From a virus, in IMG/VR virus record IMGVR_UViG_3300037307_000191, positions 12,357 through 76,356 of that record: a stretch of DNA of 64,000 nucleotides, one strand, 5' to 3'. Shown here piece by piece: positions 62,922-64,000 of this stretch. The notes under the pieces are model-generated. The model searched no databases and was not told the origin of the DNA. It saw only the letters and a list, made by a program, of their open reading frames with translations. The translations under genes were made by a program, and so were the position numbers. Numbering within the stretch: position 1 is the stretch's first letter; each line of letters begins with the position of its first letter.

Positions 62922-63219
62922 TACTCTGTTACTTCTCTTGTTTGGTGGAGCGGGGGAGAATCGAACTCCCGTCCAAATAGGATTACAAAAGGCTTTCTAC
63001 GAGCGTAGTCCATCTCCTACTGCACACTCTGTCTGATGGAACGAGCCCTGAGTGTGAGGAGTGACCGCATTTTCTTCGTCTAGGCTTTAGGTCTCTCGCT
63101 TCTCCTAGACTAGCCTACACTAGCGACATTGGCGTTGGGTTACTGCAGGCGTTCACCCGCCAACGGATCAAGCGGCTAAGGCTTGATCGTAAAGATCGAA
63201 CATAAATAACACTATACAA

Positions 63220-63903
63220 CTGACAGAGAGCATCGTTATGAAAATTTGGCTTCCCTATGTTTACATTGCCACACACAAAACATCTAAAAAGTTTTACATT
63301 GGAATGCGAAGTGCTAATCAAGTTATCGCCGAGTTAGATTTAGGCATCCATTACTTTACGTCGTCTAAAACCGTCCAAACTCATTTTCAAGATTACGATT
63401 TCAAAATCATCGCATACTTTGTTGATCACAAATCAGCCTTCATTTTTGAAAATCAGATCATCGAGTGTGAATGGGGCAACCCCCTCCTCATAAACAAACA
63501 CTTTCAAAAAACTTATTCCAATTTCTCAATGGCTGGATTCAAACGCCCAGATGTCATTGATTACAACAAGGAAACAAAATCGAAACCAAAAGAATTTCGT
63601 GAATATGAATGCACTTGTTGTCGAGACACTTTCTATCGTGAAGAACACTGTCATCATCATAGATCTCTTGAGCCGTTTTGTTCAAAGGCTTGTGTTGCCA
63701 TCCATTTTCACAAAGGTAAACACTATCCAAATAAAACTAAACCTAGACCGTATCAACTTGGAAGAACTCCTTGGAATAAGGGACTAACCAAATTTAATGA
63801 TCCTCGTATTGCTTCTTATGGACAATCCGTCAGTAGATCGACAAAAGGACGAACTGCCTGGAACAAAGGACTATCTATTTCTCATAACGATGCTCTCTGT
63901 CAG
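63220..63903. repeat. Perfect 22-bp inverted repeat (63220-63241 and 63882-63903)
   Basis: ctgacagagagcatcgttatga / tcataacgatgctctctgtcag. Confidence 0.95.
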
Positions 63904-63936
63904 AGCAATCATGCTACTTTACGTTCTACTCCATAA
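63238..63936 (+). CDS. Seg-like GIY-YIG homing endonuclease, antisense to tmRNA
   Basis: PYVYIATHKTSKKFYIGMRSAN...YFTSSK; Cys motifs; two (P/A)WNKG repeats; late-promoter-like CATAAATA at 63201-63208. Confidence 0.85.
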   Translation: MKIWLPYVYIATHKTSKKFYIGMRSANQVIAELDLGIHYFTSSKTVQTHFQDYDFKIIAYFVDHKSAFIFENQIIECEWGNPLLINKHFQKTYSNFSMAGFKRPDVIDYNKETKSKPKEFREYECTCCRDTFYREEHCHHHRSLEPFCSKACVAIHFHKGKHYPNKTKPRPYQLGRTPWNKGLTKFNDPRIASYGQSVSRSTKGRTAWNKGLSISHNDALCQSNHATLRSTP

Positions 63937-64000
63937 TTGTCATCGTTTGCAGTTATGGTTTTGAGCAGATTCAAGTGGCGCTCACCACTACTCGCTTACC

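What the first reader, a model, noticed from the sequence alone, without database searches (positions are those of the whole stretch)
62943..64000. tmRNA interrupted by an inverted-repeat-bounded, endonuclease-encoding intervening sequence
Seen in sequence: a ~730-nt insert sits in the mRNA-like domain. It carries an antisense GIY-YIG ORF between perfect 22-bp inverted repeats that would pair in the tmRNA transcript and loop out ~640 nt. I see no room for a group I/II intron core. Established: rRNA intervening sequences are excised by RNase III at such stems without religation, some carry antisense ORFs, and natural two-piece tmRNAs are broken downstream of the tag. Inference: a homing endonuclease made tolerable by stem formation and cleavage, giving a non-permuted two-piece tmRNA, or one religated by a phage RNA ligase. 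The left repeat contains the ORF's RBS and ATG, so the same stem could repress the nuclease. I am not aware of this arrangement being described.
Basis: partly seen in the sequence, partly recalled or inferred. Interest (0 to 1): 0.8.

Follow-up and report, generated by a model that had tools for sequence, protein, structure and literature searches.

The report
Endonuclease cassette splitting phage tmRNA gene
A phage's ribosome-rescue RNA (tmRNA) gene is interrupted inside its tag-coding part by a selfish nuclease gene that brings its own tag ending and is closed off by a perfect 22-base-pair stem, which may let the RNA still work, probably as two pieces.

Summary
On the minus strand lies a standard-order tmRNA gene of a T4-like phage fragment. 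Its last 36 nt at the 5' end fall beyond the window, but a second metagenome contig (L091) carries them; it differs at 1 of 1085 nt. A ~745-bp cassette holding an antisense GIY-YIG/NUMOD3-type nuclease ORF sits in the gene and is bracketed by a perfect 22-bp inverted repeat.

- The cassette lies inside the tag reading frame. It supplies a new tag end (ANDDNYGVERKVA*) and strands the native end (...YDQALAA* plus helix 5) downstream.
- A related phage (L099) has the uninterrupted gene, which fixes the insertion site.
- The nuclease family is tied to phage tmRNA genes. All 14 full-length IMG/VR homologue loci show a live tmRNA tag just beyond the ORF (13 of 14 score as two-piece tmRNA) and a relic tag end 58-73 nt upstream. 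None of 10 examined has the bracketing repeat.

This is the only case I saw in a non-permuted gene, where the halves must be held together.

Not shown: that the RNA works or is cut. Two sister contigs have deleted most of the gene, starting at the insertion site.

I found no paper describing this. Earlier notes of this scan report similar cassettes on other DNA.

The parts
62944..64000 (-). Visible part of the interrupted standard-order tmRNA gene. The true 5' end lies 36 nt beyond the window end, and the whole gene is 1094 nt in L091 (1070-2163).
   Evidence: After in-silico removal of the insert, ARAGORN calls a standard tmRNA in 6069 of 7790 deletion variants.
62944..63005 (-). 3' tRNA-like domain: P2 3' strand, T-arm, acceptor 3' strand and encoded CCA.
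   Evidence: RF00023 match at 62943-63033. The T-stem shows 2 both-sided compensatory changes against L099.
63006..63165 (-). tmRNA body downstream of helix 5 (the pseudoknot region).
   Evidence: 12-13 differences in 190 aligned nt against the uninterrupted L099 gene, with no indels. 0 of 67 predicted pairs are broken. A variant patch at 63055-63104 occurs in three runs.
63166..63197 (-). Relic of the native tag end (...YDQALAA*, stop at 63168-63170), embedded in the native helix 5 hairpin (8 bp, 63166-63173 with 63181-63188).
   Evidence: Identical to the live tag end of L099 from 63193 onwards.
63198..63941 (.). Inserted cassette of about 745 bp. The boundaries come from alignment to L099 and are uncertain by a few bases.
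   Evidence: Alignment A3.
63201..63208 (+). T4-late-promoter-like box (7 of 8 matches to TATAAATA), 37 nt upstream of the nuclease ATG.
   Evidence: A matching box lies at -24 to -32 in all 14 viral homologue loci. The consensus itself is recalled.
63220..63241 (.). Left arm of the perfect 22-bp inverted repeat. It contains the nuclease's RBS-like GAGAG and its ATG.
63238..63936 (+). GIY-YIG / zinc-finger / NUMOD3-like homing endonuclease ORF of 232 aa. The last ~18 residues are encoded by the right repeat arm and the antisense of the tag.
63882..63903 (.). Right arm of the inverted repeat. In the tmRNA transcript it begins 5 nt after the new tag stop.
63909..63950 (-). Live tag reading frame ANDDNYGVERKVA*. 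From about codon 4 onwards it is supplied by the cassette.
63951..64000 (-). PK1 and the P2 5' strand of the tmRNA.
   Evidence: The PK1 loop-to-downstream pairing shows one both-sided change against L099 (read by eye).

Best explanation
SHOWN. A T4-like phage carries a standard-order (one-piece type) tmRNA gene. A ~745-bp free-standing GIY-YIG homing-endonuclease cassette has landed inside its tag reading frame, just after the first three codons.
- The cassette carries its own tag remainder and stop, so the live tag is ANDDNYGVERKVA*.
- It pushes the native tag end (...YDQALAA*), helix 5, the pseudoknots and the 3' tRNA-like strand about 745 nt downstream.
- The same nuclease family sits just beyond the live tag, with a relic tag end upstream of its ORF, in two-piece (permuted) phage tmRNA genes. 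There everything after the tag is dispensable.

INFERRED. In this non-permuted gene the cassette separates two halves that must pair.
- A perfect 22-bp inverted repeat, absent from the relatives, closes the 640-nt interior into a hairpin right after the new stop codon. This is where helix 5 normally sits.
- The transcript can then still fold as tmRNA.
- Most likely, host RNase III cuts the stem as it does in rRNA intervening sequences. That would give a two-piece tmRNA from a non-permuted gene.
- In the nuclease's own mRNA the same stem hides the RBS and AUG and should restrain its translation.
For: Anatomy:
- Window sequence, Rfam partial hits and ORF.
- The complete gene in L091.
- ARAGORN calls a 410-nt standard tmRNA once the repeat-bounded part is removed. 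It does so in 6069 of 7790 deletion variants.

Empty site: L099 has an uninterrupted 361-nt tmRNA at the syntenic place. It aligns to both flanks of the cassette.

Family context:
- 59 homologues were found.
- 13 of 14 full-length viral loci reach the RF04321 gathering score just beyond the nuclease ORF. The 14th is cut by its contig end.
- 0 of 8 distant GIY-YIG loci scanned have a tmRNA.
- A relic tag end lies 58-73 nt upstream of the nuclease ATG in 14 of 14 loci, against 21 of 4216 random windows.

Stem:
- It forms in the MFE and centroid folds of the 1094-nt transcript, with the acceptor stem kept.
- It also forms in the sense mRNA.
- No cassette-bracketing repeat occurs in 10 relatives.

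Integrity of the two halves:
- The acceptor stem is 7 of 7 paired, including G3-U.
- Against L099 there are 2 both-sided changes in the acceptor stem and 1 in P2, spanning the cassette (read by eye).
- 0 of 67 predicted 3'-half pairs are broken.

Persistence: a 78%-identical homologue (P0002) keeps the last 14 residues unchanged. These residues are encoded antisense to the tag and the repeat arm.

Spread: the allele occurs in four further data sets.
Against: - There is no RNA evidence. All runs laid were contigs, which cannot show ends or cleavage.
- Two sister contigs from different metagenomes (L016, L098) have lost everything from tag codon 2 to the T-loop. These phages can therefore do without the tmRNA.
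- The copies of the allele are nearly identical. Intactness may reflect recent insertion and not selection.
- The compensatory changes against L099 cannot be dated relative to the insertion.
- The tag ends in KVA, not the usual LAA.
- The repeat could serve only nuclease regulation, or be a by-product of the rearrangement that truncated the nuclease's C-terminus.
- The consensus fold was predicted from the same two sequences it was tested on.
Confidence: 0.5

Rival explanations
1. Dead gene. The nuclease cassette inactivated this one-piece tmRNA. The inverted repeat is a rearrangement scar or serves only to restrain nuclease translation, and the intact look reflects a recent event.
For: - Deletion alleles in the sister lineage show the tmRNA is dispensable.
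- Copies differ by 0-6 nt over hundreds of bases.
- The stem does sequester the RBS and AUG in the sense mRNA.
- No SmpB gene is present in the 76-kb fragment, which is 39% complete.
Against: - A perfect 22-bp repeat sits exactly at the two ends of the cassette interior. It is absent from 10 relatives, where bridging is not needed.
- All tmRNA hallmarks are intact in both halves.
- The deletion alleles already show an A-C mismatch in the acceptor stem, and L098 shows a PK1 loop change.
- P0002 keeps the tag-antisense tail despite 22% divergence elsewhere.
Confidence: 0.3
2. Functional but uncut. The 1.1-kb RNA works as a one-piece tmRNA with a giant hairpin in place of helix 5.
For: The MFE fold keeps the tRNA-like domain and places the insert as one closed domain after the stop codon.
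Against: - A 22-bp perfect duplex is a typical RNase III substrate (recalled).
- A 640-nt antisense ORF would also pair with the nuclease mRNA.
- No tmRNA of this size is described in PMC11915505, where the longest genes are 1152 and 1116 bp, with a spacer or an intron that is removed (passages read).
Confidence: 0.12
3. The pieces are rejoined after excision by one of the phage's RNA ligases, giving an ordinary one-piece tmRNA.
For: Two RNA-ligase-like genes lie in the window at 41667-42785 and 49828-51045.
Against: No precedent and no junction evidence. Ends left by RNase III on a duplex stub are staggered, not abutting (recalled).
Confidence: 0.04
4. A self-splicing group I or II intron, a DNA inversion switch, or an assembly chimera.
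For: None found.
Against: - No intron family match at E <= 10 (window 62850-64000) or E <= 5 (L091).
- The antisense ORF fills 699 of about 745 nt.
- No joints appeared in four runs.
- Both junctions are crossed by L091 and by contigs of three other studies.
Confidence: 0.04

Closest known systems
Mobile endonuclease ORFs (mORFs) of fungal mitochondria that bring a replacement gene end (Allomyces macrogynus atp6; Glomus atp6, atp9, cox2, nad3)
   Same: An endonuclease gene inserts into a host gene. It carries a foreign copy of the gene's 3' end and leaves the native end as a downstream duplicate. One Glomus case is a GIY-YIG enzyme (PMC3630166, passages read).
   Different: The host gene here is a structured RNA, and only the short tag ORF end is replaced. 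In this window the displaced part is not dispensable: it holds the pseudoknots and half of the tRNA-like domain. A bridging stem is present.
Intervening sequences of bacterial 23S rRNA, for example the 428-nt ORF-bearing IVS of Coxiella burnetii
   Same: A non-intron insert in a structural RNA is closed by a stem. RNase III excises it without religation, and the pieces stay together by base pairing (PMC4990558, abstract read).
   Different: Cleavage is not shown here. The host is tmRNA, the ORF is antisense and is an apparently intact homing endonuclease, and the insert also rewrites a coding segment.
Permuted (two-piece) tmRNA genes of alpha- and beta-proteobacteria, cyanobacteria and their phages
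   Same: The mature RNA would consist of a coding piece and an acceptor piece, broken downstream of the tag (PMC11915505 and PMC9004378, passages read).
   Different: Gene order here is not permuted: the coding part comes first and the acceptor part last. The discarded segment would be a nuclease cassette, not the spacer between the CCA and the 5' end.
Intron-form tmRNA genes (group I intron in the T-loop, some with LAGLIDADG endonuclease genes)
   Same: A homing endonuclease gene sits inside a tmRNA gene (36 of 883 intron forms; PMC11915505, passages).
   Different: There is no ribozyme core here. The position (tag ORF), the enzyme family and the ORF orientation (antisense) all differ.
Free-standing GIY-YIG endonucleases of T4 (Seg proteins) and I-TevI (recalled, not read here)
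   Same: GIY-YIG catalytic domain with a zinc finger and NUMOD3-like DNA-binding modules, a late-promoter-like box, and an RBS hidden in a hairpin.
   Different: Sequence similarity is weak: Pfam E 0.021 and no PDB sequence match. The target is a tmRNA tag.

Membership tests
tmRNA, standard (one-piece) gene form | 5' and 3' strands form an acceptor stem with G3-U, followed by an encoded CCA | tested here: met
   The 5' strand in L091 pairs 7 of 7 with the 3' strand at 62948-62954, including G3-U.
tmRNA, standard (one-piece) gene form | T-arm and P2 helix, PK1, and a resume codon with an in-frame tag and stop | tested here: met
   Rfam partial matches. ARAGORN reports both tRNA domains, the resume consensus and the tag after in-silico removal of the insert.
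tmRNA, standard (one-piece) gene form | Gene order runs 5' strand, tag, pseudoknots, 3' strand | tested here: met
   Order on the minus strand. It is colinear with the uninterrupted L099 gene.
tmRNA, standard (one-piece) gene form | Reaches the curated score of the family model as one contiguous gene | tested here: not met
   RF00023 scores 32.7 bits against a gathering score of 47. ARAGORN finds no gene in the intact sequence.
tmRNA, standard (one-piece) gene form | Charged with alanine and active in trans-translation with SmpB | not testable with these tools
   No RNA or biochemical data. No SmpB gene is present in the fragment.
Permuted (two-piece) tmRNA gene | The acceptor piece precedes the coding piece in the gene | tested here: not met
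   No acceptor piece lies upstream of the 5' strand in L091. The RF04321 match across L091 1007-1197 scores only 43.2 bits, below the gathering score of 47.
GIY-YIG homing endonuclease | GIY-YIG catalytic fold and motifs | tested here: met
   The best structural match is the I-TevI catalytic domain (Z 6.7, rmsd 3.1 A, 82 residues), followed by other GIY-YIG nucleases. Arg24, Glu71 and Asn86 are invariant in 30 sequences. Pfam is only E 0.021.
GIY-YIG homing endonuclease | Cleaves the insert-free allele near its own insertion site | not testable with these tools
   An insert-free allele (L099) is available as a substrate for a bench assay.
Endonuclease cassette with gene-end replacement (mORF-like) | A replacement gene end next to the nuclease, the native end displaced as a duplicate, and an empty allele in a relative | tested here: met
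   New tag end at 63909-63941, relic at 63168-63197, and the empty allele in L099. The same layout occurs in 14 of 14 viral loci.
Group I / group II intron | Conserved ribozyme core | tested here: not met
   No intron family match at E <= 10 or E <= 5. The antisense ORF fills nearly the whole insert.
rRNA-type intervening sequence | The insert is closed by a long stem formed by its ends | tested here: met
   A 22-bp perfect stem appears in the MFE and centroid folds of the full transcript.
rRNA-type intervening sequence | Excised by RNase III, with the fragments not religated | not testable with these tools
   Only contigs were available.

The most novel reading that the evidence does not exclude
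This is a working fourth form of tmRNA gene. A non-permuted gene is split by a ribozyme-free homing-endonuclease cassette. The cassette's own terminal stem lets host RNase III cut it out, giving a two-piece tmRNA by a route different from gene permutation. The cassette also swaps the proteolysis tag from ...ALAA to ...KVA, and so may change the fate of tagged proteins in the infected cell.
Probability: 0.35. Interest if true: 0.8.

Novelty: new variant of a known kind. Interest (0 to 1): 0.62.

Why it matters
- If the split gene works, tmRNA genes exist in a form beyond the three listed in the 2025 tmRNA database paper (standard, intron, permuted).
- It would show how a homing endonuclease can settle in a structured RNA gene without a ribozyme: it brings a replacement end and, where needed, a closing stem.
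- It would also show a second evolutionary route to two-piece tmRNA.
- In practice, ARAGORN and Rfam at default thresholds miss such genes entirely, so phage tmRNAs of this kind go unannotated.
- The tag swap is a natural experiment on degradation tags.

Tried and rejected
Searches and checks that gave nothing:
- ARAGORN on the window, on the whole contig treated as circular, and on a rotated end-to-start join found no gene. The contig does not close on itself, with no terminal overlap.
- blastn and tblastn against 50,697 GenBank phage records gave no match for the DNA, or for the nuclease at E <= 1e-10.
- Exact-pattern scans found nothing for the T-arm/acceptor probe in viral contigs or genome contigs, nor for the tag-start probe in viral contigs.
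- A profile search of PDB sequences returned only weak zinc-finger matches and no GIY-YIG entry. Foldseek gave no match at E <= 0.001. The GIY-YIG fold call rests on the VIA second look.
- No intrinsic terminator was found in L091 900-2190. Sigma-70-like sites numbered 5, against 2.7 expected, and none is placed to drive the 3' half separately.
- SmpB and RNase III families were not found in the 76-kb fragment. It is 39% complete, so absence from the phage is not shown.

Limits of the read-laying result:
- All four runs are contigs. The runs labelled RNA-Seq are probably DNA and say nothing about processing.
- The lack of cover in X1 at 63155-64000 and in X4 at about 63497-63667 is not evidence of anything.

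What was not done:
- Of the 73 viral loci, only 20 were scanned with Rfam (12 full-length and 8 distant). The other 53 were not scanned, two of them (L018, L021) duplicating contigs scanned as L001 and L002.
- In one search my script mis-framed the L092 nuclease. Its relic (...NYDLAA*) was read by eye.
- Supplementary tables of PMC11915505 (the 97,179-sequence database) were not available and could hold such genes unremarked.
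Full report
**What the DNA is.** The window is the last 64 kb of a 76,356-nt linear virus record that ends at window position 64000 and does not close on itself. CheckV rates it 39% complete. Large ORFs match PHROG families for tail and baseplate proteins, ribonucleotide reductase, DNA ligase, two RNA ligases and a purM-like gene. 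This is a fragment of a large T4-like phage.

**Checking the observation.** On the minus strand, Rfam at relaxed threshold finds two parts of a tmRNA.
- The T-arm, acceptor 3' strand and CCA lie at 62943-63033 (RF00023, 32.7 bits, E 3.7e-11).
- The PK1/tag region lies at 63909-64000 (RF04321 positions 123-213, 29 bits).

At curated thresholds both Rfam and ARAGORN see nothing.

Between the two parts lies a 232-aa plus-strand ORF (63238-63936). It is bracketed by a perfect 22-bp inverted repeat at 63220-63241 and 63882-63903.

The ORF is a weak Pfam GIY-YIG match (E 0.021) and matches PHROG 314 'homing endonuclease' (2.5e-7). A model built from 30 homologues has mean pLDDT 72. Its residues 4-90 best match the I-TevI catalytic domain (Z 6.7, rmsd 3.1 A, 82 residues), followed by other GIY-YIG nucleases. 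Four invariant cysteines and two WNKG(L) motifs follow.

No intron family matches at E <= 10 or E <= 5 on the full gene.

**The missing 5' end and the junctions.** An exact-pattern scan of JGI metagenome contigs returned L091, a 2190-nt contig. It overlaps the window over 1085 nt with one difference and runs 1105 nt further.

L091 shows that the gene starts 36 nt beyond the window end. The 5' strand pairs 7 of 7 with the 3' strand, including the G3-U pair. The whole gene is 1094 nt.

Logan contigs from three other studies (groundwater, freshwater, wastewater) cover the cassette and both junctions. They run 163-473 nt past position 64000, and no joints or inversions were reported.

When the insert is removed in silico, ARAGORN calls a standard tmRNA in 6069 of 7790 deletion variants. 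Removing exactly the repeat-bounded part gives a 410-nt tmRNA with tag ANDDNYGVERKVA*.

**The insert is inside the tag frame.** Downstream of the cassette the minus strand reads ...YDQALAA* (stop at 63168-63170). This lies inside an 8-bp hairpin, as a native tag end in helix 5 would. A sibling note of this scan pointed me to it.

My last viral scan, with a probe from this relic, found L099, a 111.8-kb viral contig. It carries an uninterrupted 361-nt standard tmRNA at the syntenic place (ARAGORN tag DASNDAVYDQALAA*).

Alignment A3 shows L099 matching the window allele in two blocks. The first runs up to the third tag codon. The second resumes at the relic, with identity from 63193 onward. About 15 nt of L099 are replaced by about 745 nt in the window allele.

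From the relic to the P2 strand, the two differ at 12-13 of 190 positions with no indel. In a consensus fold of the 3' halves, 61 of 67 pairs are unchanged, 4 change on one side, 2 change on both sides and none breaks. That structure was predicted from the same two sequences, so the test is weak.

By eye, pairs that span the cassette also covary between L099 and the window allele. There are two both-sided changes in the acceptor stem and one in P2, and one more within PK1. These changes cannot be dated relative to the insertion.

**The nuclease family lives in phage tmRNA tags.** The protein has 59 homologues at E <= 0.001 among 108 candidates. There is none in 50,697 GenBank phage records at E <= 1e-10. 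There is one close hit among 185,579 species genomes, L092, a 12.5-kb MAG contig.

In IMG/VR, a profile search gave 73 loci. Fourteen of them (L018-L031, about 11 distinct) match over most of the protein.
- Thirteen of these 14 have a permuted two-piece tmRNA above the RF04321 gathering score (57-123 bits). It is convergent with the nuclease ORF and lies just beyond it.
- The 14th is cut by its contig end but shows the tag.
- Eight more distant GIY-YIG loci that I scanned have none. The other 53 loci, two of them repeats of contigs already scanned, were not scanned.
- In all 14, a second tag end (AIAA*, ALAA*, LAA*, ALAV*, LVA*, IAA* and the like) lies antisense 58-73 nt upstream of the nuclease ATG. 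Such a motif occurs in 21 of 4216 random 130-nt windows.
- In all 14, a box resembling the T4 late promoter lies 24-32 nt before the ATG.
- In six of them the relic starts at the third tag codon (Asp).

So the family is a cassette that inserts after the first codons of the tag. It brings a replacement tag end and strands the native end. L092 shows the duplication also covers the structured 3' domain. In permuted genes nothing essential lies beyond the tag, so this is harmless there.

**What is special here.** The window's host gene is not permuted. The cassette therefore separates the 5' tRNA-like strand, PK1 and tag from helix 5, the pseudoknots and the 3' tRNA-like strand.

Only here is there a perfect 22-bp repeat. 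One arm begins 5 nt after the new stop codon, and the other covers the nuclease's RBS and ATG. In 10 relatives no repeat brackets the cassette. The best nuclease-spanning pairs there were 28 nt at 75-79%.

The nuclease's usual C-terminus is missing. After the second WNKG motif the ORF reads through the right arm and the antisense of the tag. The repeat therefore arose by a rearrangement.

In the minimum-energy and centroid folds of the 1094-nt transcript, the stem forms and extends outward, and the acceptor stem stays closed. The cassette interior thus becomes one hairpin at the place of helix 5.

The same stem forms in the nuclease-sense RNA and buries the RBS and AUG (z -3.4 against shuffles).

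A 78%-identical homologue (P0002) has the same read-through tail. Its last 14 residues are identical, which hints that the arrangement has persisted under constraint.

**Evidence against function.** Two contigs of a sister lineage from different metagenomes, L016 and L098, are 88% identical to the window in the downstream 2.6 kb. Both carry the same 104-nt remnant: the 5' strand and PK1, then a jump from tag codon 2 straight into the T-loop.
- The deletion starts at the cassette's insertion site, which fits a nuclease-triggered loss. It also shows these phages survive without the tmRNA.
- The remnants already show an A-C mismatch in the acceptor stem.
- There is no RNA evidence of any kind.
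- The copies of the allele are nearly identical, and the tag ends in KVA.

**Mechanism and odds.** I put about 0.9 on the anatomy: a re-ending GIY-YIG cassette in a standard tmRNA gene. I put about 0.5 on the full reading that the stem keeps the gene working, most likely through RNase III excision into two pieces. The rivals are a dead gene (0.3), an uncut giant-hairpin tmRNA (0.12), and religation, intron, inversion or chimera (under 0.1 together).

**Comparison with what is known.** The 2025 tmRNA database paper lists three gene forms: standard, group I intron in the T-loop (36 of 883 with LAGLIDADG genes) and permuted. It reports 79 phage sequences and longest genes of 1152 and 1116 bp (PMC11915505, passages). 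Phage two-piece tmRNAs are known (PMC9004378, passages).

Gene-end replacement by mobile endonuclease ORFs is known in fungal mitochondria (PMC3630166, passages). Stem-closed inserts cut out by RNase III are known in 23S rRNA (PMC4990558, abstract).

Four searches found no paper on a GIY-YIG cassette in a tmRNA tag or on a stem-closed insert in tmRNA. Supplements were closed.

Earlier notes of this scan report the re-ending cassette in two-piece phage tmRNAs. In all, 51 notes in at least 46 genomes matched my search words. The notes also report stem-closed nuclease cassettes inside PK1 of other phage tmRNAs. None of the notes I saw combines the re-ending family with a standard gene and a closing stem after the tag.

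Noticed in passing
L092:1240-2770 (minus strand): A complete standard tmRNA (RF00023, 136.8 bits, tag ADEDYALAA*) is followed by a second coding piece (tag ANDDTYLLAANA*). That piece scores as a permuted tmRNA together with the first gene's acceptor end (RF04321, 108.4 bits). The nuclease ORF, a relic tag end and a duplicated 3' domain come next. It looks like the tandem intermediate proposed for the origin of permuted genes.
   Followed up: partly
L016:4508-4613 and L098:2874-2979: The same 104-nt tmRNA remnant occurs in two metagenomes. It holds the 5' strand and PK1, then a deletion from tag codon 2 to the T-loop. The deletion starts at the cassette's insertion site. The acceptor stem has an A-C mismatch.
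   Followed up: partly
window 63055-63104: A variant patch with 12 substitutions in 50 nt is flanked by identical sequence. It appears as short contigs in three runs of different studies. At least one change is compensated, a G-C pair becoming A-U in a 7-bp helix. Its linkage to the cassette is unknown.
   Followed up: partly
L099:747-1107 against window 63006-63193: The tmRNA body is about 93% identical between L099 and the window phage. The tRNA-like ends and the neighbouring ORFs look much more diverged (by eye). This suggests recent exchange of the middle of the gene next to the homing site. L099 has GTA where the resume codon GCA is expected, and a 9-nt direct duplication in the tag.
   Followed up: no
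L001:3719-4300 (minus strand): This permuted tmRNA, on a 250-kb viral contig, has an unusually long segment of about 370 nt between the acceptor piece and the coding piece.
   Followed up: no
window 37717-38982, 41667-42785, 49828-51045: A DNA ligase and two different RNA-ligase-like genes lie within 13 kb on the same strand as the tmRNA.
   Followed up: no
window 45765-55163 and elsewhere: Other first-stage notes on this genome claim that many genes need a +1 shift at CGG. I saw fragmented and overlapping ORFs near 61822-62426 but did not test the claim.
   Followed up: no
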